From the IMG/VR virus record IMGVR_UViG_3300021400_003144: a DNA stretch of 64,000 nucleotides; one strand, given 5' to 3'. The position numbers were made by a program, and so were the translations under genes. Shown here piece after piece: positions 730 to 28,313 of this stretch (position 1 is the first letter of the stretch; each line of letters begins with the position of its first letter). The DNA is from a virus. Taxonomy: Duplodnaviria; Caudoviricetes. The notes beneath the pieces are model-generated. The model was not told the origin of the DNA. It ran no database searches and saw only the letters and a program-made list of their open reading frames with translations.

Positions 730-1767
730 ATGAAGAAATATGTAAAAGCTTATGATTCAAAGACTAAGAGTTGGGTAACAGTAGAGGAAATTGCTAGGGC
801 TGATAGATATGATAAGCCTCGTTATTATTCAGATTGTAACTATGATAGTGACTCTGGAGAAATACTTACTTATGTAAAAGAAAGTAAAGAACTTTATGGA
901 AAAACAAGTGGCAAAGCTTATGTGAGATGTGCACACTTCAGAAAGTATTGTAGCAATAGTGCAAAAGAGAGGGCACAGATAAATAAATATGTTGCTACTC
1001 AGGAAGAGCATATTAATAAAATAGCTAAGAGCATAGGAAAGAAAATTAAGCAGATTAAAATTCCAGATATAAAGACAAGTGTTCTTGGGGAAGAGTTTGA
1101 TTTATTTAATAGTGGCTATGTTGATGTGACCTATGTAACTACAATAAAAGAAGGTGAGTCAAGTAGTGAAATACCAACACTTGTGTTTGCAACAAAGTAT
1201 CTTGGTGTTGTAGAAACAATCTATGTAAGATTGTTCTATAACAATGAGATGTCTGAGGATAGACATAAGTGGTTACTTGATAAAGGTATAAATTGTTTGG
1301 AAGTAGACATAAGTGAATTGAGAGCAGACATTAAGCAATCATATAAGACATTAAGTAATAAGATATTGAAAGAGATAGTATATAACAGCTATTGGATTTC
1401 AAATGCTTATAAAAAGTCATTTGAAGCTGAAAGAGATATGACAATACTTGATATAAATAATAAAAATATCTTAAAGAAGTCTGATTATGGCAAAGGAAAA
1501 GAGAATAGGTGCTACTTCTTTAAAGACAAGTACAATGAGTTAGCAGGAAGTGATTGTTTAAGTGTAGGAAAAAGACATTCAGTTGATATTTATGAATGTA
1601 AGGATTGTAAGAAGTGCATCTGTATTAAAGATATAGATAGTGATGATATTAATAATGTCCATGTGTATTGTTTTAAAGGTGATATACCTGAGACAAAGTT
1701 AAACATTATAAAGACTATAAATGAAATAAAGCAGACAGCTTTAAGATATTTAGAGCAGAAGTATTAA
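730..1767 (+). CDS. Hypothetical protein, weak resemblance to CoiA-like nuclease fold
   Basis: 345 aa ORF with AHFR, GINCLEVDIS and a C-terminal CxxCxxC. The function call is weak. Confidence 0.5.
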   Translation: MKKYVKAYDSKTKSWVTVEEIARADRYDKPRYYSDCNYDSDSGEILTYVKESKELYGKTSGKAYVRCAHFRKYCSNSAKERAQINKYVATQEEHINKIAKSIGKKIKQIKIPDIKTSVLGEEFDLFNSGYVDVTYVTTIKEGESSSEIPTLVFATKYLGVVETIYVRLFYNNEMSEDRHKWLLDKGINCLEVDISELRADIKQSYKTLSNKILKEIVYNSYWISNAYKKSFEAERDMTILDINNKNILKKSDYGKGKENRCYFFKDKYNELAGSDCLSVGKRHSVDIYECKDCKKCICIKDIDSDDINNVHVYCFKGDIPETKLNIIKTINEIKQTALRYLEQKY

Positions 1768-1774
1768 GGATGAG

Positions 1775-2302
1775 ATGTTTATTAGTATGGATAGGATAAA
1801 TAAATTGAATATATTAAACAAATTAAAGATTGCAGTAATGATTATTATGTTAATTATTCCATTCATGTTTCTTTCATTTTGTGTCAATAATATTAAAATT
1901 TATGACTTAAAATCAAATGAAATGGTCATTAATAGAAATTCTATTCTAGTTAGTATAGATGGAGAAAAATATACTTTTAATCCTGATAATAGATTAGAAT
2001 ACAAGTTGATGGAGAAAGATCATTCTGTAGAGTATATTGTAGCTGAAAAAGGTGCTGGTAATACTCATAAGTTTAAGTCACAGTCTAATTTCATTGATGA
2101 TAAAGGTGAAATTAAAGATTTTATCAATAAAGATGGAACAGATATAAGTGCTGATAGACTTAAGGAAATTGATAGAACAGCATTAAATAATTTTACAATA
2201 CAAATTACATTTGCTTGTGCTATAATGGTGATAGTGGTATTCATATTATTAAAGTTCATATCATTTTTAGATAAAATTCAACTTAAGGAAATATTGAAGT
2301 AA
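1775..2302 (+). CDS. Membrane protein, paralog of 2315-2869
   Basis: Two hydrophobic segments. Shares EKDHxVEYIV and KDGTDxSxxRLKEI with the next gene. Confidence 0.75.
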   Translation: MFISMDRINKLNILNKLKIAVMIIMLIIPFMFLSFCVNNIKIYDLKSNEMVINRNSILVSIDGEKYTFNPDNRLEYKLMEKDHSVEYIVAEKGAGNTHKFKSQSNFIDDKGEIKDFINKDGTDISADRLKEIDRTALNNFTIQITFACAIMVIVVFILLKFISFLDKIQLKEILK

Positions 2303-2314
2303 GGGGTAAGAACT

Positions 2315-2869
2315 ATGACTGAGCTAATAGAAGAGAAGGGCAGAGATGAATCAGAGAAATTTGGATTAGAAAGATGGTTAGACAGTTCTAGTCTTTTAGC
2401 ATATATAATAGCAATGATGTTCGTACTTACACCATTTTTTGTTATATTTCATGAAATGGTGAATGGGAACATATATAACTTAAATTCAAATGAGATATTG
2501 GTTTATGAACATGCAGTGGTTAATGTGGATGGAGTTGAGTCTCTTTTCCTAAAGTCTAATAGGTCTGAATACAAGGCATCTGAAAAAGACCATGATGTAG
2601 AATATATAGTAGGTAATAGACATGATGGCAAACTTTATAACTTCAATTCACAATGTTTTATAGATGAAAATGGTAGGTTTAAACAGTTTATCCATAAGGA
2701 CGGAACAGATTTAAGTGGTGAGAGACTTAAAGAAATTGAGTTTACATTTGTTAAAAACTCATTTGCAATAATGTTTAGAATATATACTATTGGAATTGTG
2801 TTAGTGCTAGTAATAGCAAAGGTTACAGAAATGATAGATAGAAAAAGACTTACAGGAAAGTGGTTATAA
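2315..2869 (+). CDS. Membrane protein, paralog of 1775-2302
   Basis: Same shared motifs and TM layout. Confidence 0.75.
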   Translation: MTELIEEKGRDESEKFGLERWLDSSSLLAYIIAMMFVLTPFFVIFHEMVNGNIYNLNSNEILVYEHAVVNVDGVESLFLKSNRSEYKASEKDHDVEYIVGNRHDGKLYNFNSQCFIDENGRFKQFIHKDGTDLSGERLKEIEFTFVKNSFAIMFRIYTIGIVLVLVIAKVTEMIDRKRLTGKWL

Positions 2870-2886
2870 CATAAATAAGGTTGATA

Positions 2887-3225
2887 GAACCCTTTTATAG
2901 GGATTAACTGATATTAGCTAAAGGTAAGCATTTGAATTTGCTCCTTTTAGCATTGGAACCCTGTTATAGGGATTGAAACATACAGCACTATACATTGCAG
3001 AAATTTTCACAGATAGAACCCTGTTATAGGGATTAAATGCTTCAGATAGATTTGTAGAAGTCTAGAATTGTATAGATAGAACCCTTGTAATAGGGATTGA
3101 GTGTTTATAGACAAGGTAGTACCTTTAGGAATATGTTTAAACCCTGTTATAGGGATTGACTTATGATTGTACAATCAACGTGTAAGTATTAAGTATTTAA
3201 ACTGAACCCTGTTATAGGGATTAGA
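2887..3225 (+). CRISPR. CRISPR mini-array 1 (6 degenerate repeats, 5 spacers)
   Basis: Repeat core (G/A)AACCCT-N5/6-AGGGATT starts at 2887, 2956, 3016, 3079, 3139 and 3204 (period 60-69). Spacers are unique. Lies next to cas10. Confidence 0.9.
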
Positions 3226-3264
3226 TACACCTTTAAATCAAATGGTTTAAAGGTGTAATTTTTT
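3226..3264 (+). terminator. Intrinsic terminator closing array 1
   Basis: TACACCTTTAAA...TTTAAAGGTGTA stem followed by a T tract. Confidence 0.8.
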
Positions 3265-3277
3265 GTGTAAAAATATG

Positions 3278-3306
3278 TTGACAAAATTATAAAAAAGTGA
3301 TATGAT
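3278..3306 (+). promoter_or_regulatory. SigmaA-type promoter for cas operon
   Basis: TTGACA-17bp-TATGAT. Confidence 0.8.
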
Positions 3307-3349
3307 ATATAAAGAAATTAAGAGTTATGTAACTCAGAAAGGATAATGA

Positions 3350-5227
3350 ATGGTAGACGAAAAATGTAAAGAGCTTTATATAGCAGGTCTACTCCATGAT
3401 GTAGGTAAGTATATACATAAGACTAATGGCAATAAGGCTTCTCATGAGATATTATCTCAGTTGTTTATTTTAGATAATCCTGAGATTTGTATTGGGGCTG
3501 ATGTTGAGAAAATAGCTAACATTGTAGCCAATCATCATGACAGAGGAAAGTATGATAAAAGCTTTGTAGGAAATTTAAAGATAACTCCTGATAAAGTGGT
3601 GTCTGCTGAACTTTGTAAGAAAGCTTATGATAACTATAAGTTGGACTGCTATAAGAGTGAGATAGACATTATTAAAAAGGCTGATAGCTTATCAGCTTCA
3701 TCAGACAGAGCATCTGAGACTGGAGAGTCAGGAAATGGAACAAGTGCTCCATATGCTCCACTAATATCTCCTATTGGAAAAGTATTCAATAAGAGATTAG
3801 CAGTAAGACATGGTAATTCTTACTGTGTTTACAACTTTAGTGGGGATACTGATACTAAAGAAGTTATCATGGAGCTTGATAAGAATTGTGATGAACATAT
3901 AGAGAGTTCCTTTGAGTCTTTCATGAATGACATAAAGGCTATAAAGAGTCTGAATGACCTTGATGATATTCTGAAAAAGCATTGGTCAACTGTCAATGCC
4001 AATACATGGAGACCTAAGGGAGAATCTTTAGGAAACACAACTACTTCCTTGTATGACCATAGTAAAACTACAGCGGCTTTGGCTGTAGGGGCATATCTAA
4101 ATAAATGTGCTGGTGTGGCTGTGGATGATATGTTTGTTTACAGAGTAGTATACAATGGAAATAACAGAAGTCTTGAGGATATTGTTGATAATCTTTTGAA
4201 TGAGATTGGACTATCTCAGTTACATGTAATAAGTTCTACTGATGATGAGGTTTATGCAATTATACCTTATATAAAGTCATTAGAATTTGTAGAAGGTCTG
4301 AGTAAAGAGAACATAATATCTTTTAAGGATTTTGGAGAGACAATAGACTACTTTGTAGCTAAGCATTGGAAATTTAAGGGTTGCAGAGATTCTTTTAGAG
4401 ATAGACTTGGAGAGTGTCAGTATGGTATAACTAAAGTCTTAGGTAAAGTAGATGCAGGCATTGGAGCTGATACTTATATAGCAGATAGACTTGATAGTAA
4501 GTTTATAGGTGGCTATGTAATAGATGGTTATGACTATATACTTGAACATGTACTAACTGAGAATGACTCCATTAGTAAGCTGAGTACTACCTTTAGAATA
4601 TTTGAAGCATTTAATAGAGAAGTAACTAAACTTCTTGACAACAAGGGTAAAATGGTACTCAAGTCTGAACTTGATAAGACTATTTATTCAGCTGATAACA
4701 TTGAGGAAGTGCATAGGATTGAAGTAGAGATACAGTCAATATTTGAGAAGTACTTCGGAGATGCTACAGGGTTGTACTTTACATACTCTAAGTATGACAG
4801 ATATAGCAATACAGTAGAAATGTTGGACAGAGAATTTAATACTAGAGGTGCTAGTCTGAATATTGAGAAGAAGCTTCAGAATGGAGGTCTGTACACTACA
4901 GTTCTTATAGATACTAAGAGATATAAGATAAATAGTTTAAAGATATATAATGAATATGTTGGGTATCTGAGTAAGTGTGATAAATCCTTCTTGTATAAAG
5001 CAAAGCAGATGTATGATGAGCTGTTTAAGTATAACATTGATAAAGACCCTATACATCTTGTAGCTAAGTCAAGACTGTACTATATGAAGTCAAAGGCAGA
5101 TGGAAATAAGGTAAATGTACTTAATGAGATATATAAGTGTGCATTTGATTCTGCAAAAGGTCAGATTAGTGATAATGCATACATAATATATGAAGCATTA
5201 AAAAATGTGTTAACCAATGTGAAGTAA
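3350..5227 (+). CDS. cas10: Cas10/Csm1-like large subunit, HD nuclease motifs intact, cyclase motif degenerate
   Basis: Has AGLLHDVGK, VANHH, IKKADSLSA and SLYDHSKTTAALA (Csm1 hallmark). SISKLSTTFRIF aligns to the Palm2 SR.ATLSR region. GGDD is absent (probably VLKSELDK). Confidence 0.88.
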   Translation: MVDEKCKELYIAGLLHDVGKYIHKTNGNKASHEILSQLFILDNPEICIGADVEKIANIVANHHDRGKYDKSFVGNLKITPDKVVSAELCKKAYDNYKLDCYKSEIDIIKKADSLSASSDRASETGESGNGTSAPYAPLISPIGKVFNKRLAVRHGNSYCVYNFSGDTDTKEVIMELDKNCDEHIESSFESFMNDIKAIKSLNDLDDILKKHWSTVNANTWRPKGESLGNTTTSLYDHSKTTAALAVGAYLNKCAGVAVDDMFVYRVVYNGNNRSLEDIVDNLLNEIGLSQLHVISSTDDEVYAIIPYIKSLEFVEGLSKENIISFKDFGETIDYFVAKHWKFKGCRDSFRDRLGECQYGITKVLGKVDAGIGADTYIADRLDSKFIGGYVIDGYDYILEHVLTENDSISKLSTTFRIFEAFNREVTKLLDNKGKMVLKSELDKTIYSADNIEEVHRIEVEIQSIFEKYFGDATGLYFTYSKYDRYSNTVEMLDREFNTRGASLNIEKKLQNGGLYTTVLIDTKRYKINSLKIYNEYVGYLSKCDKSFLYKAKQMYDELFKYNIDKDPIHLVAKSRLYYMKSKADGNKVNVLNEIYKCAFDSAKGQISDNAYIIYEALKNVLTNVK

Positions 5228-5236
5228 GGAGTATAC

Positions 5237-5719
5237 ATGGACGATAATTATTTAAAGGAAATCAAGTCTGGATATACAGACAATGGTGTAGCTAAGCTGA
5301 GTCTGATTGATGGATATCCTCAGAAGTTAGCTAAGGAGTTTAATGAAGCAACTCCAATGTTGTCAACAAAGCAATCAAGAAGTATCTTTGATACTGTGAA
5401 TGGACTTGAGGTTAAGCTTCGTAGAAAGTCAGTATCATTTGATGAAGTCAAGATTGAACTTGGACTACTTAAGTCTAGAATAAATGATAAGGTTAATAAG
5501 GGAAGTATCCCTAAGGTATTCTTTGAGTTCTTTGAGGAAAATATTAAAGCCATTAAGAATGAAAAGGATTTACAGGTGTTTAAGATTCATCTTGAGTCAA
5601 TTTGTAACTATCTCAAGGATGATAAGCAGACTGGAAATAACGGAAGCTACAATAAGGGTACAGGCTATAATGGAAATTATAGACCTAGAACAAATGGATA
5701 TAATAACAATAGAAGATGA
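5237..5719 (+). CDS. csm2: Csm2 (Cas11) small subunit
   Basis: STKQSRSIFD and FKIHLESICNY match the Csm2 TxQxRxF and FxxxxExxxxY motifs. Position after cas10. Confidence 0.8.
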   Translation: MDDNYLKEIKSGYTDNGVAKLSLIDGYPQKLAKEFNEATPMLSTKQSRSIFDTVNGLEVKLRRKSVSFDEVKIELGLLKSRINDKVNKGSIPKVFFEFFEENIKAIKNEKDLQVFKIHLESICNYLKDDKQTGNNGSYNKGTGYNGNYRPRTNGYNNNRR

Positions 5720-5736
5720 AAGTGAGGATATAAATT

Positions 5737-6375
5737 ATGATTAAGGAGCAGATTAAGATTACAGGTGTACTTACAACAGAGTCAGGTATACATATTGGTG
5801 GTACTAAGTCAGACTTAGGAATTGGTTCTATGGACAATCCGGTTGTTAGAGATGCTCTTACAAATAGACCTTATATTCCTGGTTCATCCATTAAGGGAAA
5901 GATGAGAAGTATGTTTGAGCTTAGTGGTTTTGCTAAGGGCAAGACATTACCTTGTGGCTGTGGTGATAAGGATTGTATCGTATGCAAGCTCTTTGGTGCT
6001 CATAGAAATACCAAGTCTGAAGCAGGTCAGACAAGAGTAATGTTCAGAGATGCTTATTTATCACCAGAGTTTGAGAATCTTGATAACACTATTGAAGTTA
6101 AGACTGAGACAGCTATTGATAGAAGGACTGGTACAGCTCAGAATGGTTCTCTGAGACAGAGTGAGAGAGTTGCAGCAGGTGTCAATTTCAACTATGAGAT
6201 TAGCATTCTTGTATGCGATGGAGACAATGCTGATGAGCTTAGGGCTATGGTTGAGAATGGTCTTAGAATGATTGAGGCTACAGGTCTTGGTGGTAAGGTA
6301 TCAGCTGGATATGGTAAGGTTAACTTCAATATTGGTGCTGATTCTTATAAGGTAGAAACTAGGAAGTTTAATTAA
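5737..6375 (+). CDS. csm3: Csm3 (Cas7) RAMP backbone RNase
   Basis: GIHIGG, DNPVVRD (catalytic Asp position retained), PYIPGSSIKGKMRS, CIVCKLFG, EVKTETAIDR and GLGGKVSAGYG. Confidence 0.95.
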   Translation: MIKEQIKITGVLTTESGIHIGGTKSDLGIGSMDNPVVRDALTNRPYIPGSSIKGKMRSMFELSGFAKGKTLPCGCGDKDCIVCKLFGAHRNTKSEAGQTRVMFRDAYLSPEFENLDNTIEVKTETAIDRRTGTAQNGSLRQSERVAAGVNFNYEISILVCDGDNADELRAMVENGLRMIEATGLGGKVSAGYGKVNFNIGADSYKVETRKFN

Positions 6376-6387
6376 AGAGGTGTACAG

Positions 6388-7089
6388 GTGTTATATAAAA
6401 TAGAACTTCAACAGAATACGGCTACAATAGGTAATGTTGTAGCCAATACATTATTTGGGGCTTTTCTAACAGCTTATTCAACTATATATACAGTTGATAA
6501 GGACATGATAGATGATATTGTATTATCTGATTTATTTTATAATAACATCTTACCTAAGGGTGTTATTAATAATAAAACAGTGTTCTCAAAGCCTTTTGAA
6601 CATACTCAGATAGAAATGTCAAGAGCTCTTATAGCAAGAGATAATGAATCAACTAATGTTGTAAATAATACTGTTGGTAATATTGATAAGAAATGTTCAT
6701 TCTTTATTAGTACTAAGTTACTTGATAAGAATGACATTGAGGAAATAGTCAAGCTTATGTGTGAGTTTGGTATAGGCAAGTGGAGAAATGTTGGTAAAGG
6801 TCAATTTGAATTTAAGAGCATAGAGGAATATGTACCAAAGACAGATGTAAAGAGATTTGTATGTTTAAGTAGTTTTATTCCGGACTGTGATATAAACGAT
6901 TATGACATCAGTTCTTTAGGTTATACAATTAGAGATGCCTATGCTACCAATGGTATTAAACAGAAGCAGACTATAATGCTTCTGACAGGAACAAGTTTCA
7001 GAACATTCAGAGAAGTTGTTGGAAAGCATGTATATGATGAGAATAGCAATACTTATATACATGGTAAATCAATAGTGATTGGAGTTTAA
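6388..7089 (+). CDS. csm4: Csm4 (Cas5 group) RAMP, shortened
   Basis: NTLFGAF, G-rich loop GIGKWRNVGKGQF and CLSSFIP. Confidence 0.8.
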   Translation: MLYKIELQQNTATIGNVVANTLFGAFLTAYSTIYTVDKDMIDDIVLSDLFYNNILPKGVINNKTVFSKPFEHTQIEMSRALIARDNESTNVVNNTVGNIDKKCSFFISTKLLDKNDIEEIVKLMCEFGIGKWRNVGKGQFEFKSIEEYVPKTDVKRFVCLSSFIPDCDINDYDISSLGYTIRDAYATNGIKQKQTIMLLTGTSFRTFREVVGKHVYDENSNTYIHGKSIVIGV

Positions 7090-7717
7090 GATGGTTTATA
7101 GATTAGAAAAACTTATTTCAAGTGGAGAAAAAGCAACTAAGGATTTAGGTATTCTTAGCAATATGATATCTAATGCAGAGAATGTGCATGGAATCCTTGG
7201 AGAGCTTTTTAACTTAGAGAATGAGCAGAACTGGAGAGCTAATCATCATATTTTATACAGAAGAGAGACAAATAAGACTTGTGAATTTATTGTTAGATCT
7301 GATGTAGAAATTGATATGAATAAGGCTAAAGAGCTTGGTTTCAGTGTAAAGACAGAAAAAGAAGTTCCAATGACTGGTGTTGTAAAAATCAGACTTGCAG
7401 CGGCTACCTTTAGAACAGAGAAAGGCTCATCAAGTCGTAATAGAAAAGCTATTAAGCTTCAGGATGATAGAATTAACTGGATTAAGTATAAGTTATCCAG
7501 TAAGGGTGAATGTGAAGTTTATGATGTAAATGAAGTAGGCAAGGTAATGAATTTCATGTCTCATAAGGATACAGCTAATGGGCAGGTAATGCTTGAGGGT
7601 TATGATTATGAGGTTAGTCTTAAGGTCAAGGATTCAGAAGGGTTTAAAAAGCTTGTAGAGAATGGTGTAGGACCCAATAAAAACTATGGGTTTGGAATGA
7701 TAGTCTGTAGTGAATAA
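7079..7717 (+). CDS. cas6: Cas6 family crRNA-processing endoribonuclease, Cas6e/Cse3-like
   Basis: C-terminal GVGPNKNYGFGM glycine loop, ILYR segment and INWIKYK resemble Cas6e. Last gene before array 2. Confidence 0.75.
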   Translation: MEFKMVYRLEKLISSGEKATKDLGILSNMISNAENVHGILGELFNLENEQNWRANHHILYRRETNKTCEFIVRSDVEIDMNKAKELGFSVKTEKEVPMTGVVKIRLAAATFRTEKGSSSRNRKAIKLQDDRINWIKYKLSSKGECEVYDVNEVGKVMNFMSHKDTANGQVMLEGYDYEVSLKVKDSEGFKKLVENGVGPNKNYGFGMIVCSE

Positions 7718-7763
7718 TGATAGTGATTGAACAGAATTAACCTAGACTTATGTAGTCTAGGTT

Positions 7764-8147
7764 AAACCCTTATAATGGGGATTGTATATTGAAAGCATAT
7801 AAGTTTATGAATGCTCTTCCAATTAGAACCCTTATACAGGGATTAAATGTTGATGAACTCTTCCATTTCGTTGAAGGGTTTGAGAGAACCCTTGTGACAT
7901 GGATTGATACATTTGATTCTCCTTTATTCTCTATGTAGAGAACCCTTGTGACAGGGATTGATACATTTGGTAGTGACTTTAATTCTTTAAGCAATGAATA
8001 TCTGAACCCTTGTAATAGGGATTGAATTACTTTGATTTTAGCAATAAACTCAATACTTAGATCTAGAACCCTTTAATAGGGATTGCATTAAAAGCTTTTC
8101 TGCTAGTTACATTACAATATAGGGAGAACCCTTTTATAGGGATTGTA
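7764..8147 (+). CRISPR. CRISPR mini-array 2 (7 repeats, 6 spacers)
   Basis: Repeat starts 7764, 7826, 7886, 7940, 8004, 8066 and 8126 (period 54-64). Confidence 0.9.
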
Positions 8148-8168
8148 TTAAGCATAGGAGGTGTATAT

Positions 8169-8876
8169 TTGAATAGAATTTTAAAAATAATAGTCATAAC
8201 TATCTTTAGTTTTATTGGAATATCAGTAATGAGCATAATTCTTTTAATAGGTGGAATACAGCTATTTGTACTCGGATACAACGGAAGTATTCCTGATGTT
8301 GAAGAGAGACCAAAGATTATTGCTCATGAACTAGGGAAGAAATACGGAGATAAGTTCGAAGTACTTAGTTGTGAGCAAGTAAATCTTGGTAGTTACAAGG
8401 TTGCTAAGCACGCAAATATTGGTGAGGCTAAGTGTTTGTCAGATGGAATTAAGTTTAATTATCAAGTAGATTTGAGATGTAGAAAAGATTTATGTGATAA
8501 TTACATTGGATTATTGAATGAACCAGTAATAATGGAGGATATAAAAGAGTTATTAAATGAGAATAACTTAGAAGAATATTTTTATAACTTAGAATTAGAT
8601 ATGAATTATTCATATGAAGCAAAGACATTAGCTGAGTATAAAGAAGATGAAAACATAGTAGTAAAAGTTGATACAGAGGTATATGATTCTGAGGATGCAG
8701 AAAACTATTATAGACTTTTTCATTTATTAAAGGACAATGGGTATGTATTTGATGCTAAGTTAAGAGACAGTGATAATAAAACATATCTAAGTGGTAGACC
8801 TTCAGATACAGATAAAGAAGCATATATAACTGAAGAAAGATTCAGGAATAAAATGGAAGATATAGGAATATACTAA
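8169..8876 (+). CDS. Membrane-anchored hypothetical protein located between arrays 2 and 3
   Basis: N-terminal TM, KKYGDKFEV motif. AGGAGG RBS lies about 10 nt after the last repeat. Confidence 0.75.
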   Translation: MNRILKIIVITIFSFIGISVMSIILLIGGIQLFVLGYNGSIPDVEERPKIIAHELGKKYGDKFEVLSCEQVNLGSYKVAKHANIGEAKCLSDGIKFNYQVDLRCRKDLCDNYIGLLNEPVIMEDIKELLNENNLEEYFYNLELDMNYSYEAKTLAEYKEDENIVVKVDTEVYDSEDAENYYRLFHLLKDNGYVFDAKLRDSDNKTYLSGRPSDTDKEAYITEERFRNKMEDIGIY

Positions 8877-8902
8877 TGGTGATTTAGTATGTTCTGTGAT
8901 AA

Positions 8903-9049
8903 GAACCCTTTTATAGGGATTGATACTTGTAAATTTTATTCAACATACACATTTTAGAAATATTCGTGCTGAACCCTTTTATAGGGATTGTATAATCATA
9001 ACTTCAGAGTTTTCAAGGGCACAGTTTGAACCCTTTTATAGGGATTGGT
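8903..9049 (+). CRISPR. CRISPR mini-array 3 (3 repeats, 2 spacers)
   Basis: GAACCCTTTTATAGGGATTG at 8903, 8971 and 9028. Confidence 0.88.
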
Positions 9050-9056
9050 GAGCTAT

Positions 9057-9111
9057 AAATAAGTTGGTATAGTACTAGGAAATTAATCTTAGGCTATACC
9101 AACTTATTTTT
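9057..9111 (+). terminator. Intrinsic terminator closing array 3
   Basis: AAATAAGTTGGTATAG...CTATACCAACTTATTTTT. Confidence 0.75.
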
Positions 9112-9133
9112 GTGTAAAAATTTTAAATTAGTA

Positions 9134-9162
9134 TTGATTTTTATAGATAAAGGTGTTATAAT
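9134..9162 (+). promoter_or_regulatory. SigmaA-type promoter
   Basis: TTGATT-17bp-TATAAT with an extended TG. Confidence 0.75.
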
Positions 9163-9193
9163 ATATTATATAAAATGTATTTGGAGGTAAAAG

Positions 9194-11431
9194 ATGAGAG
9201 TACTTTTATTACTTAGAGGAGCTCCTGGGTGTGGAAAATCAACATTTATTGATTATAATGGTCTTAGACCTTATGCATTATCTGCTGATGAAATTAGGTT
9301 ACTGTGTCAATCTCCTCAGCAAACACCTGATGGTTCTGTTCAGATTGGGGTAAATCATGAGGAAAAGACCTGGCGTATCTTATTTGATTTGCTTGAAGCT
9401 CGTATGGAGAGTGGAGAGTTTACTATTATAGATGCTACGAACTCTAAAACATCTGAAATGAACAGATATAAAGAGATGGCAGATACATACAGATATAGAA
9501 TGTACTGTGTAGATTTTACAGACTTGCCTATTGAAGAGTGTAAAAGACGTAATGCAGGCAGAGAGCCTCTTAAGAGAGTTCCTGATGAAGCAATAGACAA
9601 GATGTATGCTAGGTTTAAGACTCAGAAGATACCTAGTGGTATCAAGGTAATTAAGCCTAGTGAACTTAGTACAATCTGGATGAAGCCTATTGACTTCTCT
9701 AAGTATAATAAGATAGTTCATATTGGAGATATACATGGATGCTATACAGCTTTAAAGGAATACTTTGATAAGAATGATATAGCTGATGAAAATACCTTTT
9801 ATATCTTTACTGGAGATTATATAGACAGAGGTATTGAGAATGTGGAAGTTATGAATTTCCTCTTTGAAGCAGCTAAGAGAAAGAATGTATTTCTTCTTGA
9901 GGGAAATCATGACAGATCTATTCAGATTTATGGTCATGGTGGTGCTTCAAGAAACAAAGAGTTCGAGTTTGGAACTAGGAAGCAGTTCGAGGATGCTCAT
10001 ATAGATACCAAGGAGCTTAGAAATCTTTATAGAAGATTTGGACAGTGTGCTTATTATACATATGATGATAAGACAGTGCTGGTATGCCATGGTGGAGTAG
10101 CTACTGTTCCTGATAACATAACTAAGTTAGCTACATGTCAGTTAATTAATGGTGTAGGCAAGTTTAGTGATGCAGATACTGTTGAAGATACTTGGATGAA
10201 CACTACTGAGAATAATATGTATCAGATACATGGACATAGAAATACTAAAATGAGTCCTATACAGTCAAGAGATAGAGTGTTTAATCTTGATGGTGCTGTA
10301 GAACATGGTGGTGAGCTTAGAATAGTAGAGCTTACTCATGATGGGTTTAAGTGTATAGGTATTAAGAATACAGTCTTTGCAGAAGATGCAAGCTTAGAGA
10401 ATATGTCTGAGTCAAGTGAGGTTGGAGCAAATGATACTGTAGCTGACTTGATTCTTAAGCTGAGAGCTGATAAAAAGAACATTGAAGAAAAGAACTTTGG
10501 ACATATAAGTTCCTTTAACTTTACAAGAGATGCCTTTATAAACAAAGATAATTGGAATAGCAGAACTGTAAAAGCTAGAGGCTTATATATTGATGTAGAT
10601 AAGCAGAAGATTGCAGCTAGGTCATTTGATAAGTTCTTTAATGTAAATGAAATGCCATTTACTAAGTTTGATATGCTTAAGAACAAGCTTAAATTCCCAG
10701 TGAAAGCCTATGTAAAAGAAAATGGTTTCCTAGGTATTGTAGCATATGATGAATATGGTGACTATGAGGATAACCTGATTGTAACAAGTAAGTCAAGCAT
10801 AACTGGAGATTTTTCAGGCTGGTTAAGAGATATGCTGAACAGAAAGACAGAGTATGATACTCGTAAGAAGATGGCTGAGTTCTGTAAGGCTAATGATTGT
10901 AGCTTGGTATTTGAATGTGTAGACATGGGTAATGACCCTCATATCATTGAATATCCTGAGTCTGAGCTGTATCTGCTTGCTTGTGTAAATAATGAGATTG
11001 AGTTCAAGCAGATGAGCTATAATAAGCTTGAGAAGTTAGGAAGAGAGCTTGGACTTAAGGTTAAGACATTGGCTTATACTCTTAATAATTGGAGTGAGTT
11101 CTATGATTGGTATACAGAGGTCAATGCTGATGACTATAAGTTTAATGATAGAATCATTGAGGGTTTTGTAATTGAAGATGCTTCAGGATTTATGACAAAG
11201 ATTAAGCTTAGCTACTATCAGTTCTGGAAACACATGAGAGCTGTAGCTAGAGAAACATTACGCTATGGTTATATAAGAAAAACTGGTGCATTGACAGATG
11301 AAACATCTAATATGTTCTATGGATTCTGTAGAAATCTATATAATGAGGCAGGAAGTCCTGTTATGAGAGACCTTATACCTAGAGATATAGTCTATCTCAG
11401 AAAGAGATTCTATGATAGTTTAAAGAAGTAA
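9194..11431 (+). CDS. Polynucleotide kinase / metallophosphatase / RNA ligase fusion (Pnkp-like RNA repair)
   Basis: P-loop GAPGCGKS and DATN. Phosphoesterase motifs GDIHG, GDYIDRG, GNHD, HGG and HGH. Ligase motifs KENGFLG, EGFV and KIK. Confidence 0.9.
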   Translation: MRVLLLLRGAPGCGKSTFIDYNGLRPYALSADEIRLLCQSPQQTPDGSVQIGVNHEEKTWRILFDLLEARMESGEFTIIDATNSKTSEMNRYKEMADTYRYRMYCVDFTDLPIEECKRRNAGREPLKRVPDEAIDKMYARFKTQKIPSGIKVIKPSELSTIWMKPIDFSKYNKIVHIGDIHGCYTALKEYFDKNDIADENTFYIFTGDYIDRGIENVEVMNFLFEAAKRKNVFLLEGNHDRSIQIYGHGGASRNKEFEFGTRKQFEDAHIDTKELRNLYRRFGQCAYYTYDDKTVLVCHGGVATVPDNITKLATCQLINGVGKFSDADTVEDTWMNTTENNMYQIHGHRNTKMSPIQSRDRVFNLDGAVEHGGELRIVELTHDGFKCIGIKNTVFAEDASLENMSESSEVGANDTVADLILKLRADKKNIEEKNFGHISSFNFTRDAFINKDNWNSRTVKARGLYIDVDKQKIAARSFDKFFNVNEMPFTKFDMLKNKLKFPVKAYVKENGFLGIVAYDEYGDYEDNLIVTSKSSITGDFSGWLRDMLNRKTEYDTRKKMAEFCKANDCSLVFECVDMGNDPHIIEYPESELYLLACVNNEIEFKQMSYNKLEKLGRELGLKVKTLAYTLNNWSEFYDWYTEVNADDYKFNDRIIEGFVIEDASGFMTKIKLSYYQFWKHMRAVARETLRYGYIRKTGALTDETSNMFYGFCRNLYNEAGSPVMRDLIPRDIVYLRKRFYDSLKK

Positions 11432-11518
11432 GATGATGTAAAGATTGTGGTCTTGTTATGAAATTAAATTGAACATTGTTTCATAACAAGACCATTTTTA
11501 GATTTAGGGTAGGACATT

Positions 11519-11809
11519 ATGAATAAGGCATTGTTGAAAAAGAGAATAGTAATTGGAATGTTGATATTTGGACTATTGCCTTTTATGCTAATAGCAGGTT
11601 GCTTGATATATGATGCTTTTGATGGTGTAGCTGAGTTTAGTCTATTCATTCCACCTAATAAATGGTACTATGGGTTGGATGCAATAAGGTATGAGTTATT
11701 CTGGGTGTGGGTATTTATGTGTGCATATTGGTATATAAGTATTCCTTGGGTTGTTATATTTATAGCAATTCCTATTGGTTATATTCTATTTATAAGGAGT
11801 AAGGAATGA
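11519..11809 (+). CDS. Small membrane protein
   Basis: Hydrophobic 96 aa ORF in an operon. Confidence 0.65.
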   Translation: MNKALLKKRIVIGMLIFGLLPFMLIAGCLIYDAFDGVAEFSLFIPPNKWYYGLDAIRYELFWVWVFMCAYWYISIPWVVIFIAIPIGYILFIRSKE

Positions 11810-12270
11810 AAATAAAAGTAAGAGATATCATGGTTGGCTTAATAATGGGAGTTATGTTATTTTATATAGATATCGTAATGTATGATATTTATTCAAAGAG
11901 TGAGATAAGTGACCATTTAAGTGAAACAGAGTTTTTACTTAGGGAAAATAATGTTGGTTTAAGTGTAGTTACTAGAAATGAAGAAAAGAAAGCTGACCTT
12001 GATGATTTAAGTCTGTATGAAATATTGGAAGAAACAGGTAAGATAAAGTATAATCTTAAAGTTGGTGATAAAACATATGAATTACAGAGTATAGCTGATA
12101 AAGTTGTTAATGATGATGTAATAAGCCTAGAAGAAATTACTGATTCTAGAAGAAAAGAAATAAGTGACATGGTAGGTAAGTTTGATAGCATGTGGGGCAA
12201 TGTTACTATATTTTCAATACTGTTAGGATTAATAGTTGGTACATTTGCATCAGTACGAGGATTAATATAA
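11806..12270 (+). CDS. Membrane protein, paralog of 12306-12836
   Basis: Shares EFxLR, DLDxL, YELxSIxDK and ISLxExTDxRRKE. Confidence 0.75.
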   Translation: MKIKVRDIMVGLIMGVMLFYIDIVMYDIYSKSEISDHLSETEFLLRENNVGLSVVTRNEEKKADLDDLSLYEILEETGKIKYNLKVGDKTYELQSIADKVVNDDVISLEEITDSRRKEISDMVGKFDSMWGNVTIFSILLGLIVGTFASVRGLI

Positions 12271-16420: not shown

Positions 16421-18718
16421 ATGAGCAAGACATTAGACTTTAGTAAAGATAAGGAGCTTATAAGACAGGATAGTACTGGTGAATATATAGAAGTAACATT
16501 AAATGTTAAGAAAGCTTTTGGAAAAGGTCGGTTATATAGTGATGGTAGCATGCTGATAGAAGAAGGACACTATAAAGCATGTGTACCTAGTGCAAATGAA
16601 GTATTCAAAAAGGCATACAGAAGTGACTTAGGTTTAAATGCAGATTCTGATGGTGATATTAAAAATATAAGAGTTGGAAGTGCATCAGGAGCAGCTAATA
16701 TCTTAGTGGGTGGTTTAAGTTCAGGTTATATTGTTTGGAAAGACAAGAAAGATAGGATTGTAGACTTTTATAGAGATACACATAATGAAAAAAGTGAAAC
16801 ACCTAAGAAAAGAGTAATTGCAGAGGTATTAGACCAAAAACCTCGTAGAAAGAATATAGGAACAGAAGGAAAGCCTTTAGAGACACTTGTAAATCCTGAT
16901 GTAAAGCAGATATTAGGTGATAAAGTTCATCTTGAAGAAGGTGATGAACTTACATGGTATAGAGATGCAAATATAAATATAATATGGCATACAGATGGCT
17001 CCTGTGATTTATTTGAGAGGGAGCACATAGGGATTTGTGGGGCTGTCTTTAGGATAGTGTATGGACACTGGAGAGGTAAGGGTGAGCATGGTTCTGGAAT
17101 GGAGCCTCAGCATTGGATATATAAAGGTATCAAAGTTTCTGATATTTTAAATGTTTATCCTAATTTTTGGAAAGCATGCGAAAATAGCCTAGATTATGGA
17201 GATAACACAGAAGCTGAGGATAACAGGAGTTATGAAATGGGCAGAACAAGCAATAAAGAAGCAGTTGATAAAGAAGGTGTAACTAAAGAAGCTGTTAGGC
17301 AACCTAAGTATTACTATGAGTCAACTAGGCTAAAATATAGAACAACAAATTCTGATGTACAATGCAGTGCTGTTAGAGATATTAATAAGATAAAAAGTCA
17401 ACTGTTTTATGAAGGTAGCAATAGCAATCAAGACACACCTTGGAAAATAGCAGAAGATATGATAGACCTACTTCCAGAAAGTGTATGGAATCCTCATACA
17501 AAGTTCTTAGACATCTATTGTAAGAGTGGTATATTCTTAGAAGTTATAAAGAATACACTTAAAGATAAATGTTATGAACAGTATAGAGAAATGGGATTAG
17601 CAACAGATACAGAGATAAACAAGTATATATTTGAGAATCAATTATATGGATTATGTTGGTCAAAAAGAAATTATGAATATACAGCTGAGAGTTTATTCAT
17701 GGTTAGAAGTCCTATGAATAGCTATAATATAAAGAAGTTAAGTGAAGTACTTAAGGCAGAAGAAAATACAGAAATATTAAAAGATGAACATGACGGAAAT
17801 ACGGATGAATACATAAAGAGAGATTATGTAACATTGGGATTGATTAAGAAATACAGGAAAAAGAATGAATATACAGGAGAAGATGAAATGACAATAGATG
17901 TAGTAGTAGGAAATCCGCCATATAACAAAGATATATACATTGACTTTGTAGAGAATGGGCATAAGATTGCAAGACAATACTGCTGTTTCATAACACCTGC
18001 CAAGTGGCAAGCCAAAGGTGGAGAAAAGAACGAGTCATTTCGTAAGAATATAGTTCCTCACATGAGTAAGATCGTTTATTATCCTAACACACCAGATGTA
18101 TTCTTTATAGGGGAAGCTGCTGGAATATCAGCATACAGAATAGATAAAGAAATATATGAAAAGAAAAAATTAGTTGTTAAAAGTAGCATACCAATTCTTA
18201 GGGGTAGCTGTGAGTTAACACATGATATGCCATTAGATATATGTGGGTGGAATATTATTAACAAAGTAAAAGGAAAAAGGATGTCTCTCAAAAATTATAA
18301 CACTGATAAGAAGTATAAAGTTTGGGTTAATAATCTTGTTGGACTTAGTGGTGGAGGCGGAGATTGGCACACATGTCTGTTTTCCAGAGACGGAAAGACT
18401 AATTTTTTAGGGAAGGTATCTTTATCAACATGTCTAGAAGAAGAAAAGAAAATGACTTTTAATCAGAAATGCTGTTTTTCATCAGACACTAAGATAGCAT
18501 GTGAAGCATTTAAGGCATATATATATACAAGGCTAGTTAGATTCTTACTTTATATAGGAAGGTGTGGTAACTCTGTAACAAATGATGAGACATGGCGTTT
18601 CGTCCCCGATCCAGGTGCATTTGACCACATCTTCACCGACCAAGAGTTATACACTAAATATAAATTGACTCAAGAAGAAATCAATGTAATTGAGTCAGTT
18701 ATAAAGGAGCGTAAGTAA
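16421..18718 (+). CDS. Eco57I-like N6-adenine DNA methyltransferase with N-terminal DUF4357-like domain
   Basis: Motif I FLDIYCKSG, motif IV VVGNPPYN, ITPAKW and C-terminal WRFVPDP...FTDxELY. N-terminal SASGAA..GGLSSGYIVWKD resembles DUF4357. Confidence 0.82.
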   Translation: MSKTLDFSKDKELIRQDSTGEYIEVTLNVKKAFGKGRLYSDGSMLIEEGHYKACVPSANEVFKKAYRSDLGLNADSDGDIKNIRVGSASGAANILVGGLSSGYIVWKDKKDRIVDFYRDTHNEKSETPKKRVIAEVLDQKPRRKNIGTEGKPLETLVNPDVKQILGDKVHLEEGDELTWYRDANINIIWHTDGSCDLFEREHIGICGAVFRIVYGHWRGKGEHGSGMEPQHWIYKGIKVSDILNVYPNFWKACENSLDYGDNTEAEDNRSYEMGRTSNKEAVDKEGVTKEAVRQPKYYYESTRLKYRTTNSDVQCSAVRDINKIKSQLFYEGSNSNQDTPWKIAEDMIDLLPESVWNPHTKFLDIYCKSGIFLEVIKNTLKDKCYEQYREMGLATDTEINKYIFENQLYGLCWSKRNYEYTAESLFMVRSPMNSYNIKKLSEVLKAEENTEILKDEHDGNTDEYIKRDYVTLGLIKKYRKKNEYTGEDEMTIDVVVGNPPYNKDIYIDFVENGHKIARQYCCFITPAKWQAKGGEKNESFRKNIVPHMSKIVYYPNTPDVFFIGEAAGISAYRIDKEIYEKKKLVVKSSIPILRGSCELTHDMPLDICGWNIINKVKGKRMSLKNYNTDKKYKVWVNNLVGLSGGGGDWHTCLFSRDGKTNFLGKVSLSTCLEEEKKMTFNQKCCFSSDTKIACEAFKAYIYTRLVRFLLYIGRCGNSVTNDETWRFVPDPGAFDHIFTDQELYTKYKLTQEEINVIESVIKERK

Positions 18719-18756
18719 TATGTATTAATAATTAATTTATACATAGAATAAAAAGA

Positions 18757-18838
18757 GTACCCCTTATAATGGGGATTGAATATATTTTTTATACAGCTCT
18801 TCATCTGTGAAAATAGAACCCTCGTTGGGGATTGAATT
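18757..18838 (+). CRISPR. CRISPR mini-array 4 (2 repeats, 1 spacer)
   Basis: GTACCCCTTATAATGGGGATTGAA at 18757 and GAACCCTCGTTGGGGATTGAA at 18816, separated by a 35-nt spacer. Confidence 0.85.
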
Positions 18839-26897: not shown

Positions 26898-27293
26898 ATG
26901 AGTAGAAAGAATAGAGAAAAAGATAAGAAGCGTGAGCAGAGAATATATGAAGAGTACAAGAGGATAAAGAGAGTGAACAGTAAGCCTTATAGGATACTCA
27001 TTAAACTAGACACACTTTTATTGAACTATTGTGATTGTGTAAGTCGGTGTGGTCATAAAGATCCTTCTGGAACTTTTTTAGTTATAAACTTAATATTACT
27101 TAGTGAATATGCATTTTGTTATACTATAGTTGTGCCACAAGTTTTTGGTGAATATACAGTTCTAATAGGAACTTTAGCATTTATAGTCTTTGTAGGAACA
27201 CTAATAAAGTTATGCAGAATGTTTAAGGAGTGTAATAAGATAGACAATACATTTGTGTCTAAATCAGGTAAGGAGGATACAAAATCAGTATGA
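26898..27293 (+). CDS. Membrane protein
   Basis: Two hydrophobic segments. Confidence 0.6.
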   Translation: MSRKNREKDKKREQRIYEEYKRIKRVNSKPYRILIKLDTLLLNYCDCVSRCGHKDPSGTFLVINLILLSEYAFCYTIVVPQVFGEYTVLIGTLAFIVFVGTLIKLCRMFKECNKIDNTFVSKSGKEDTKSV

Positions 27294-27889
27294 ATTTAAA
27301 AGAAGCTGTATTACAAAGAGATAATGTACATTATGTTAATTTATATATTGATGAGATTCGTGACTATATTAGTTGCAACGTAGCTGATAGTAATGGTAAA
27401 TACATGTATGAAAATCCTGAACTCAGTATAGATGATTTGGAAGGCATAGAGTTTAATGATGTTACAGACTTTGATTTTTCTAAATGTGACTGTGCTTTTA
27501 ATGGATATCTCGTAACATTGAATGAGGAAACCATTAAAAAACATACAGATGAAAATAAAGCATATAAAGAGCTTAACAAGCTATTAATTAAAAAGTATAC
27601 TAAATATGTAGAAATGTATAAACGTAGTGAAAAATTCAGTCTAGAAGATTGGATACTATACCCATCAGCTATTATACCATTTGATGCATTTGTAGCATTT
27701 GAGGTACTTGATGCATTGCAGAATACACAATCAAATCAAAGAATACTTATACTGGGTGGATTAGCAGTTCTATGCATAGCATTTCATATATTTATAGTTG
27801 GATACTATTTAACAGATAGAGATGTACATAAAATATGTAAGGAATACAGGGAAGAATATGAAAATAAATTAAAACAAACTTTAGGATAA
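27290..27889 (+). CDS. Membrane protein, paralog of 48131-48817
   Basis: Shares GKYxxENPExxxxxLxxIxxxDVxxFxF and the TM pair. Confidence 0.7.
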   Translation: MNLKEAVLQRDNVHYVNLYIDEIRDYISCNVADSNGKYMYENPELSIDDLEGIEFNDVTDFDFSKCDCAFNGYLVTLNEETIKKHTDENKAYKELNKLLIKKYTKYVEMYKRSEKFSLEDWILYPSAIIPFDAFVAFEVLDALQNTQSNQRILILGGLAVLCIAFHIFIVGYYLTDRDVHKICKEYREEYENKLKQTLG

Positions 27890-27916
27890 AGCGAGGACAC
27901 TATGACTTTAAGTTGA

Positions 27917-28254
27917 AGTGAACCCTTGCAATAGGGATTGAATCTGTACCATACATTTCATTTACTTGCTCTATAGAGTGAACCCTTGCAATAGGGATTG
28001 AATTTTATAATAATGCTCTATGCATTCATTATAATTTAGTGAACCCTTACAATAGGGATTGAATTTATCACCGTTATCGTCGCTGTCGTAATCCTTGGAG
28101 TGAACCCTTGTAATAGGGATTGAATTGTTAGAAAACAAATTATTGACTGTTAATTATTAAAAGTGAACCCTTGTAAATAGGGATTGGATTTATTTTCTAA
28201 GTTTTTAAATATGCTATTAGGTCTATAAGCGAATCCTTGTGATAGGGATTGAAT
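27917..28254 (+). CRISPR. CRISPR array 5 (6 repeats, 5 spacers), best conserved
   Basis: AGTGAACCCTTGCAATAGGGATTGAAT (27 nt) at 27917 and 27977, with variants at 28038, 28099, 28162 and 28228. Spacers are 33-38 nt. Degeneracy increases toward the 3' end. Confidence 0.95.
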
Positions 28255-28313
28255 AGAAAAGAACTTGAGTCTAACAGGGTATTAAAAACAATTAGTGAGG
28301 TACAAATTTAATT

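What the first reader, a model, noticed from the sequence alone, without database searches (positions are those of the whole stretch)
8126..8925. A whole gene sits between repeats like a giant spacer (arrays 2 and 3)
Seen: gene 8169-8876 has its RBS about 10 nt after the repeat at 8126, and the next repeat is 27 nt after its stop. Both flanking repeats are the same variant, GAACCCTTTTATAGGGATTG, while earlier array 2 repeats differ. Inference: the gene was inserted into or captured by an array, possibly by repeat-mediated recombination. Cas6 would release it as a discrete mRNA carrying a crRNA-like 5' tag.
Basis: partly seen in the sequence, partly recalled or inferred. Interest (0 to 1): 0.78.

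Follow-up and report, generated by a model that had tools for sequence, protein, structure and literature searches.

The report
Gene embedded in a phage CRISPR array
In a giant rumen phage-like element with its own CRISPR system, an ordinary membrane-protein gene without a recognisable promoter sits between two identical CRISPR repeats, so the enzyme that cuts out guide RNAs probably also cuts out this gene's messenger RNA.

Summary
Gene 8169-8876 (TTG start, AGGAGG RBS 8156-8161) lies between two identical 21-nt repeat copies (8125-8145 and 8902-8922). The downstream repeats 8971 and 9028 have the same core. The six earlier array-2 repeats all differ.

A promoter (3278-3306) and a terminator (~9057-9112) bracket the cas operon (HD-Cas10, Csm2, Csm3, Csm4, Cas6e-like), array 2, the gene and array 3. 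I found no promoter or terminator consensus next to the gene, so it probably shares the pre-crRNA transcript. Cas6 cutting is inferred; no RNA data were usable.

The product is a membrane-anchored protein of a small family, with a distant likeness to the DUF5037 lipoprotein 4gl6. Its codon usage matches the element, so it is not a recent foreign capture.

Indirect evidence points to an empty site. The closest Cas6 relative and the closest relative of the downstream Pnkp-ligase each sit on a single 3,716-bp ENA contig. That leaves at most 869 nt between the two genes, against 1,476 nt here. I could not fetch this DNA.

The scan has noted similar gene-in-array layouts before, both in this genome (27.9-31.8 kb) and on other DNA.

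The parts
3278..3306 (+). Sigma-70-like promoter (TTGACA-17-TATGAT, TG-extended, 11 of 12), directly after the array-1 terminator (3226-3262). Likely start of the transcription unit.
3350..7717 (+). cas operon: HD-Cas10 (625 aa, no GGDD seen), Csm2, Csm3, Csm4 and a Cas6e-like endoribonuclease (7091-7717).
7737..7765 (+). Perfect 12-bp hairpin between cas6 and the first repeat. No U-run follows, so it is not a canonical terminator.
7764..8145 (+). Array 2: seven repeats (7764, 7826, 7886, 7940, 8004, 8066, 8126), all with different cores; spacers 33-43 nt.
8125..8145 (+). Upstream flanking repeat, 21 nt identical to 8902-8922. Predicted Cas6 cut after G8141 would leave the 5' tag AUUGUAUU (8142-8149).
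   Evidence: cut site inferred by analogy with Cas6e
8156..8161 (+). Shine-Dalgarno AGGAGG, 7 nt before the TTG start.
8169..8876 (+). Embedded gene, 235 aa: N-terminal membrane helix plus a two-lobed alpha/beta domain. Small family; distant likeness to DUF5037 lipoprotein 4gl6.
8902..8922 (+). Downstream flanking repeat, 26 nt after the stop. Would give the mRNA a 3' repeat hairpin.
8903..9047 (+). Array 3: three identical repeats (8903, 8971, 9028) and two spacers.
9057..9112 (+). Strong intrinsic terminator (long stem, about -20 to -30 kcal/mol, then a U-run). First one after 3262 on this strand.
9134..11431 (+). Next unit: promoter 9134-9162 and the kinase-phosphatase-RNA ligase (Pnkp-ligase) gene 9194-11431. 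Used as the downstream landmark for the empty-site argument.

Best explanation
The gene is a promoterless, resident accessory cassette that occupies one spacer position of the CRISPR array behind the element's own cas operon. SHOWN: identical 21-nt repeats flank it, with 10 nt to the RBS and 26 nt after the stop. No promoter or terminator consensus lies between the promoter at 3278 and the terminator at about 9057-9112. A Cas6e-like gene sits 450 nt upstream. INFERRED: one long transcript carries the cas genes, array 2, the gene and array 3. Cas6 cuts at the 3' base of each repeat hairpin. That would release guides, and also a roughly 780-nt monocistronic mRNA. This mRNA would have a 5'-OH end, the 8-nt tag AUUGUAUU, a 27-nt leader holding the RBS, and a 3' repeat hairpin. 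Such ends would uncouple the mRNA's stability and translation from the long precursor. INFERRED from contig arithmetic: presence of the gene at this site varies between relatives. The likely cause is recombination between repeat copies; either gain or loss fits. The product is a membrane-anchored, outward-facing protein, probably acting at the host surface and not part of the CRISPR machinery. A role in excluding rival phages is a guess.
For: Anatomy and repeat identity. All 29 repeats are on the coding strand and between ORFs. Only two strong + strand terminators occur in 2500-12000 (about 3226-3262 and 9057-9112), and each is followed by a strong promoter (3278, 9134). The same terminator-then-promoter punctuation, with arrays inside an operon, is seen at 27.3-32.7 kb. 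Cas6e-like protein: PF08798 at 7.8e-15, PADLOC Cas6e at 1.5e-17, a profile match to CasE structures including the glycine-rich loop, and an invariant His33 in four relatives. The 28-nt repeat consensus has the type I-E layout, a hairpin followed by an 8-nt tail AUUGAAUU. Resident composition: GC 0.29, GC skew 0.41, codon-usage correlation 0.93 against a mean of 0.85. Empty-site inference: Cas6 relative P0012 (45% identity, lacks the first 16 residues) and the best Pnkp-ligase relative P0015 (69% identity) are each on one ENA contig of 3,716 bp. 3716-582-2265 leaves at most 869 nt, against 1,476 nt here, or 699 nt if the 777-nt repeat-plus-gene unit is removed. Relatives of the gene itself sit on contigs of other lengths (33,502; 30,809; 32,130; 5,521; 5,685 bp).
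Against: There is no RNA evidence. Two metatranscriptome runs from the source sample gave no contig on the stretch, which says nothing either way. The promoter scan covers sigma-70-type sites only, and its hits occur at chance frequency (47 found, 45.9 expected). A phage-specific or weak promoter in the last spacers cannot be excluded. That P0012 and P0015 share a contig is inferred from equal lengths, not read. A relative of the gene above 50% identity to P0004 or P0005 could be hidden inside a cluster. The upstream repeat can also fold into a competing hairpin with the end of the preceding spacer, nearly equal in energy (-36.8 against -36.7 kcal/mol). Cleavage there may therefore be less efficient. 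A tagged 5' end could instead be loaded into the Csm complex, which would cover the RBS. Processing could thus lower expression instead of raising it.
Confidence: 0.55

Rival explanations
1. These are two ordinary neighbouring arrays with an ancestral gene between them. The gene has its own unrecognised promoter. The repeats matter only for guide production, and the identity of the flanking repeats reflects local homogenisation between nearby arrays.
For: Phage CRISPR arrays are typically short and multiple (PMC7162821). The gene's composition is fully native. Promoter scans see sigma-70 consensus only, and their hits are at chance level. A second identity class of repeats also straddles a gene (27920/27980 and 29327/29389), which could reflect regional homogenisation.
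Against: Only 10 nt separate the repeat from the RBS, and the preceding 40-nt spacer shows no -35/-10 pair. No terminator separates array 2, the gene and array 3. Real unit boundaries in this element carry a clear terminator followed by a promoter. The closest relative seems to lack room for the gene.
Confidence: 0.2
2. It is a true giant spacer. A Cas1-Cas2 integrase in an ancestor inserted a roughly 757-bp DNA fragment carrying the gene and duplicated the repeat, as in normal spacer acquisition.
For: Exact duplication of the repeat core on both sides of a single insert is what integration would leave. Long inserts in spacer positions are on record in Sulfolobus, such as the 899-bp plasmid-like fragment in locus F (PMC4390879).
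Against: I found no cas1 or cas2 among the ten ORFs around the cas operon that I scanned (730-11431). The insert is compositionally native and sits in the right orientation with a well-placed RBS, which an arbitrary captured fragment would rarely have. It lies in the middle of the array, not next to a leader. Elsewhere in array 2, identity between neighbouring repeats runs 9 nt into the spacers (7886 and 7940). That indicates duplication or recombination, not integrase action.
Confidence: 0.07
3. The protein is a functional accessory of the type III system, such as a membrane effector or regulator, and lies in the locus for that reason.
For: It sits within the cas transcription unit. Membrane-bound ancillary proteins of type III systems are known (own knowledge, not checked here).
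Against: No CARF, SAVED or other sensor or effector domain was found, and there is no PADLOC, Pfam, NCBIfam or PHROG hit. Cas10 shows no GGDD cyclase motif, so there would be no signal to sense. Distant family members carry lipoprotein signal peptides, which places the domain outside the cell. The closest cas6 relative appears to lack the gene.
Confidence: 0.08
4. Processing represses the gene. After Cas6 cleavage, the 5'-tagged RNA is captured by the Csm complex like a guide. The complex covers the RBS and start codon, and the rest of the mRNA is trimmed away. The gene would then be expressed mainly when Csm complexes are saturated or absent.
For: The tag AUUGUAUU differs at one position from the consensus AUUGAAUU. 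The RBS and start codon lie within the first 30 nt after it, the stretch a Csm3 backbone would coat (type III guide loading is own knowledge).
Against: This is purely inferential. Nothing in the sequence separates it from the stabilising reading. A TTG start with a strong RBS is compatible with either.
Confidence: 0.1

Closest known systems
CRISPR-Cas systems and compact arrays of huge phages (Al-Shayeb et al. 2020, PMC7162821)
   Same: A large phage-like element carries its own effector genes. Arrays are short (median six repeats in that study), and in most such phages adaptation genes are absent.
   Different: That paper does not describe genes sitting in spacer positions, or arrays embedded in protein-coding operons. 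Here the effector is type III-like and is paired with a Cas6e-type nuclease.
Long inserts in spacer positions of archaeal arrays, e.g. the 899-bp pNOB8-like fragment between two repeats in Sulfolobus solfataricus locus F (reviewed in PMC4390879)
   Same: A DNA piece far longer than a spacer lies between two repeats of an otherwise regular array.
   Different: That case is a partial plasmid fragment in a host array, with no claim of expression. Here the insert is an intact, conserved, compositionally native gene. It has an RBS 10 nt after the repeat, runs in the direction of array transcription, and lies in a mobile element's own array.
Synthetic Csy4 (Cas6f) cleavage sites used to insulate genes in engineered operons (Qi et al. 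2012, 'RNA processing enables predictable programming of gene expression'; title retrieved, content from own knowledge)
   Same: A Cas6-family hairpin placed before and after a cistron, so that cleavage yields separate mRNAs with defined ends.
   Different: That is an engineered device. Here it would be a natural arrangement, with the cleavage sites doubling as guide-array repeats. Cleavage has not been shown.
Integron gene cassettes (own knowledge)
   Same: Promoterless genes lie in series behind a common promoter. They are separated by short structured repeats and vary in presence between relatives.
   Different: I saw no integrase and no attC-type sites. Exchange would have to go through general recombination between 20-28-nt repeats. 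The variability rests on one indirect comparison.
Solitary repeat units and RNA anti-CRISPRs of phages (Camara-Wilpert et al. 2023, PMC10651486)
   Same: CRISPR repeats lie outside classical arrays in viral genomes. This window also has solitary or paired repeats between genes (18756, 31782).
   Different: Racrs mimic the host's repeats to sabotage host complexes. Here the repeats match the element's own Cas6 and effector.

Membership tests
CRISPR array | Direct repeats of about 23-47 nt, often with a hairpin, conserved within a locus | tested here: met
   The consensus is 28 nt with a 4-bp GC-rich stem. There are 29 copies with covariance-model E-values from 6e-12 to 1.5e-6. The repeat ends are unusually degenerate: 20 distinct cores among 29.
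CRISPR array | Unique spacers of uniform length between repeats | tested here: not met
   This is met for the ordinary units (33-49 nt between 20-nt cores). It is not met for the interval 8146-8902, which is 757 nt and holds a gene.
CRISPR array | Adjacent cas genes, including a matching processing nuclease | tested here: met
   The cas operon at 3350-7717 includes a Cas6e-like protein.
Type III-A (Csm) effector | Cas10 with an HD domain, plus Csm2, Csm3 and Csm4 | tested here: met
   HD domain 5.9e-8; Cas10/Csm1 3.9e-19 (below the curated cut-off); Csm2 4.9e-11; Csm3 1.3e-53; Csm4 1.7e-12.
Type III-A (Csm) effector | Cas10 cyclase GGDD motif, Csm5, and a type III-style Cas6 | tested here: not met
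   No GGDD is visible in the translation. No Csm5 gene lies in the operon. The nuclease matches Cas6e models best.
Cas6e (CasE/Cse3) endoribonuclease | Two-lobed RAMP fold with a C-terminal glycine-rich loop and a catalytic histidine near the N-terminus | tested here: inconclusive
   The profile matches CasE structures over the C-terminal half, including GxGPxKxxGxG (E 2e-4). His33 is invariant in four relatives. Its equivalence to the catalytic His of CasE is my own alignment by eye.
DUF5037-like lipoproteins (PDB 4gl6) | Sequence match to the family model, or clear fold identity | tested here: inconclusive
   Foldseek probability 0.93, E 2.7e-3, but TM only 0.27. VIA Z 7.0 over 177 residues, rmsd 7.2. 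Family profile against the 4gl6 sequence gives E 0.0032. No Pfam hit.
DUF5037-like lipoproteins (PDB 4gl6) | Export signal (lipobox or signal anchor) | tested here: met
   P0001, P0004 and P0005 have an N-terminal hydrophobic helix. P0006-P0008 have a GCG lipobox-like motif.
Type III ancillary effectors (CARF/SAVED and similar) | A recognisable cyclic-oligoadenylate sensor or effector domain | tested here: not met
   No family hit in Pfam, NCBIfam, PADLOC or PHROGs.
Integron cassette | Tyrosine-recombinase integrase and attC recombination sites | not tested
   None was seen among the ten ORFs scanned around the locus (730-11431). The rest of the 283-kb element was not available to me.

The most novel reading that the evidence does not exclude
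In this lineage of giant rumen phages, CRISPR repeats would do double duty. First, they would be Cas6 cut sites that chop long operon transcripts into guides and individually stabilised mRNAs. Second, they would be short recombination sites at which promoterless accessory genes are gained, lost and shuffled. That would amount to an integron-like cassette system built from a CRISPR array. The gene at 8169-8876 would be one such cassette, present here and absent at the same site in the nearest relative.
Probability: 0.2. Interest if true: 0.8.

Novelty: new variant of a known kind. Interest (0 to 1): 0.55.

Why it matters
If Cas6 really excises this mRNA, the element would be a natural counterpart of the engineered Cas6/Csy4 operon insulators. 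It would show a CRISPR processing enzyme taking part in ordinary gene expression of a virus. If presence of the gene at this site varies through repeat-mediated exchange, CRISPR arrays would also be places where mobile elements swap accessory genes. Both ideas can be tested with a small cloned fragment (about 7.0-9.2 kb of the window). The case is weakened by the lack of RNA data and by the indirect nature of the comparative evidence. It is also one of several similar layouts in this element.

Tried and rejected
1. Relatives by DNA or protein gave no match or no relative. This covers blastn and tblastn against isolated phages. It also covers Cas6 and the gene product against IMG/VR and GTDB genomes, as single proteins and as alignments.

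2. A single-repeat pattern scan gave only chance hits and wasted two scans.

3. A two-repeat pattern gave nothing in IMG/VR and three metagenome loci. L241 is an array fragment. L243 is a 167-kb relative with a two-repeat mini-array behind a methyltransferase homologue, but not the cas locus. L242 is a chance hit. The L243 record is not held for wider reading.

The contigs of P0004, P0005, P0012 and P0015 could therefore not be read.

5. Eighty IMG/VR loci with Pnkp-ligase homologues (45-61% identity) share no other neighbour gene with the window and hold no repeat. They are too distant to inform on the site.

6. RNA: no RNA holder was listed. Two metatranscriptome runs of the source sample laid no contig on 2800-9300. 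This is not evidence on expression.

7. Spacers and the gene's flanks matched against the window gave only chance-level hits of 16 nt or less. No self-targeting or regulatory match was found.

8. No paralogue of the gene lies in the window.

9. Predicted RBS accessibility before and after cleavage (0.21-0.34 against 0.75 unpaired) depends on near-isoenergetic alternative folds. I do not rely on it.

10. No whole genome is held for this window.

11. The protein atlas gave only unnamed Bacillota clusters, some with YfjL-type domains in a minority of members. That is a lead only.

Full report
WHAT IS THERE. The window is AT-rich, and nearly all its genes lie on the + strand. By the protein database it comes from a 282,865-bp contig. 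Earlier notes of this scan describe it as a sheep-rumen phage-like element; I did not check the source.

Positions 3350-7717 encode a type III-like effector operon. It holds a Cas10 with an HD domain (625 aa; I saw no GGDD motif in its translation), Csm2, Csm3 and Csm4. The last gene is a nuclease that matches Cas6e/CasE models, not type III Cas6 models. A profile of that nuclease and its three relatives matches solved CasE structures, including the glycine-rich loop. His33 is invariant among them.

THE REPEATS. A 20-nt core, GAACCCT-loop-AGGGATTG, is repeated on the + strand. Aligned with flanks, the consensus is a 28-nt unit with a 4-bp stem and an 8-nt tail (consensus ATTGAATT). This is the layout of type I-E repeats. 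A covariance model built from the copies finds exactly 29 in 64 kb. All are on the + strand and all lie between ORFs. The repeats are unusually heterogeneous, with 20 distinct cores among 29.

The repeat at 8126-8145 is followed after 10 nt by AGGAGG (8156-8161) and after 7 more nt by a TTG start at 8169. The frame ends at 8876, and the next repeat starts at 8903. The two flanking copies are identical over 21 nt (8125-8145 and 8902-8922). The same core recurs at 8971 and 9028. The six preceding repeats of array 2 are all different.

The gene is real. An exhaustive HMMER search found five relatives (42, 38, 31, 28 and 26% identity). The two closest align from residues 4-7 onward, which supports the TTG start over the downstream ATG that a gene caller had used. 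The AlphaFold2 model has mean pLDDT 83.7.

TRANSCRIPTION UNITS. On the + strand between 2500 and 12000 there are only two strong intrinsic terminators. One follows array 1 (about 3226-3262) and one follows array 3 (about 9057-9112). Each is followed by a strong sigma-70-like promoter with an extended -10, at 3278-3306 and 9134-9162. Nothing of either kind lies between cas6, array 2, the gene and array 3. Only 10 nt separate the repeat from the RBS. A 12-bp hairpin at 7737-7765 abuts the first repeat, but no U-run follows it.

The same grammar holds further on. No terminator occurs from 27290 to 31278, a stretch with three repeat blocks and four genes. Then come a terminator (31278-31315), a promoter (31350-31378), a gene, a solitary repeat, a gene and a terminator. 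Arrays in this element are therefore parts of protein-coding operons, and the gene at 8169 is one of several blocks bracketed by repeats. I infer that its mRNA is made as part of the pre-crRNA transcript.

By analogy with Cas6e, which cuts at the 3' base of the stem (own knowledge), cleavage would give an mRNA starting at about 8142. It would carry the tag AUUGUAUU and a 27-nt leader, and would end in the repeat hairpin at about 8918. None of this could be tested. The only RNA runs from the source sample gave no contig on the stretch.

THE PRODUCT. It has a long N-terminal hydrophobic helix followed by an alpha/beta domain. The more distant relatives have a lipoprotein-type signal (GCG) instead, so the domain probably faces outward. 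No Pfam, NCBIfam, PADLOC or PHROG family matches.

The best structural match is 4gl6, a DUF5037 protein of Ruminococcus gnavus. Foldseek gives probability 0.93 but a low TM-score. VIA gives Z 7.0 over 177 residues. The family profile matches its sequence at E 0.0032. I read the product as a surface or membrane accessory protein of Bacillota type, not a CRISPR component. A role against rival phages is a guess.

CAPTURED OR RESIDENT? GC content, GC skew and codon usage are those of the element (codon correlation 0.93 against a mean of 0.85 for ORFs of similar size). A recent foreign capture is therefore unlikely.

Direct comparison with relatives failed. Nothing close exists in IMG/VR, GTDB genomes or isolated phages.

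An indirect comparison is possible. The Cas6 relative P0012 (45% identity) lacks its first 16 residues, as if cut by a contig end. The best relative of the downstream Pnkp-ligase, P0015 (69% identity, full length), is the second landmark. Each is recorded on a single ENA contig of 3,716 bp. If that is one contig, at most 3716-582-2265 = 869 nt separate cas6 from the ligase gene. Here the distance is 1,476 nt, or 699 nt once the 777-nt unit of repeat plus gene is taken out.

The gene's own relatives sit on contigs of other lengths, and two of them probably share one 33,502-bp contig. This fits a site that is occupied here and empty in the nearest relative. The flanking identical repeats are the obvious substrate for gain or loss. 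It remains arithmetic, not sequence.

OTHER SUPPORT FOR RECOMBINATION. Repeats 7886 and 7940 share 9 further bases of 'spacer'. The second-largest identity class of repeats also straddles a gene (27920/27980 and 29327/29389 around 28314-29081).

COMPARISON WITH WHAT IS KNOWN.
- Huge phages with their own CRISPR systems and short arrays are known (PMC7162821).
- Long inserts in spacer positions are known from Sulfolobus (PMC4390879).
- Cas6-family sites are used in synthetic biology to insulate cistrons (and own knowledge).

My paper searches turned up no description of a natural, intact, promoterless gene in a spacer position of a virus's own array. They were not exhaustive. Earlier notes of this scan report similar layouts in this genome (27.9-31.8 kb) and in other giant elements. 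I treat those as leads. Only the in-window anatomy was re-derived here.

VERDICT. This is a new variant of known kinds, of moderate interest, and it depends on RNA mapping and on reading one short contig.

Noticed in passing
window 27917-29413: The second-largest class of identical repeat cores (GAACCCTTGCAATAGGGATTG at 27920, 27980, 29327, 29389) also straddles a gene (28314-29081, a multi-pass membrane protein with an SH3-like tail). In this array the repeat is conserved over the full 28 nt (AGT...GAATT).
   Followed up: partly
window 29386-31165: A three-gene block (29437-31131, one product with a P-loop GTGKT) is bracketed even more tightly. It starts 28 nt after one repeat, and the next repeat begins 9 nt after its stop. 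No terminator occurs until 31278.
   Followed up: partly
window 7883-7969: Repeats 7886 and 7940 share 9 further bases (ATACATTTG) beyond the repeat, 97% identity over 33 nt. This points to local duplication or recombination, not integrase-made units.
   Followed up: no
window 8116-8142: The spacer before the flanking repeat ends in TATAGGGA, the same 8 nt as the 3' half of the repeat. It can form a competing hairpin with the repeat's CCC at almost equal energy (-36.8 against -36.7 kcal/mol). It may be a repeat remnant or chance.
   Followed up: partly
window 7737-7765: A perfect 12-bp hairpin lies directly between the cas6 stop and the first repeat of array 2, without a U-run. It could be a 3' stabiliser of the cas mRNA or a processing site.
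   Followed up: no
window 9194-11431; L244-L323: The kinase-phosphatase-RNA ligase fusion next to the locus belongs to a very large family. There are 3,789 proteins at E<=1e-20 and 426 IMG/VR stretches, many on contigs of 100-400 kb. Within 10 kb of it, none of the window's neighbouring genes or repeats is shared in 80 loci.
   Followed up: partly
L243:5855-6289: A 167-kb relative has a two-repeat mini-array 12 nt after a small ORF, behind a homologue of the window's methyltransferase (16421-18718). It mirrors the mini-array at 18756-18838, so placing arrays between co-directional genes is shared in the lineage.
   Followed up: partly
proteins P0004 and P0013: Two different relatives of the embedded gene (42% and 38% identity) are both recorded on a contig of 33,502 bp. 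A related element probably carries two paralogues.
   Followed up: no
window 1775-2869: Two adjacent paralogous genes (175 and 184 aa; 80% DNA identity over 84 nt) lie directly before array 1, whose first repeat begins 17 nt after the second stop. No family was found for them.
   Followed up: no
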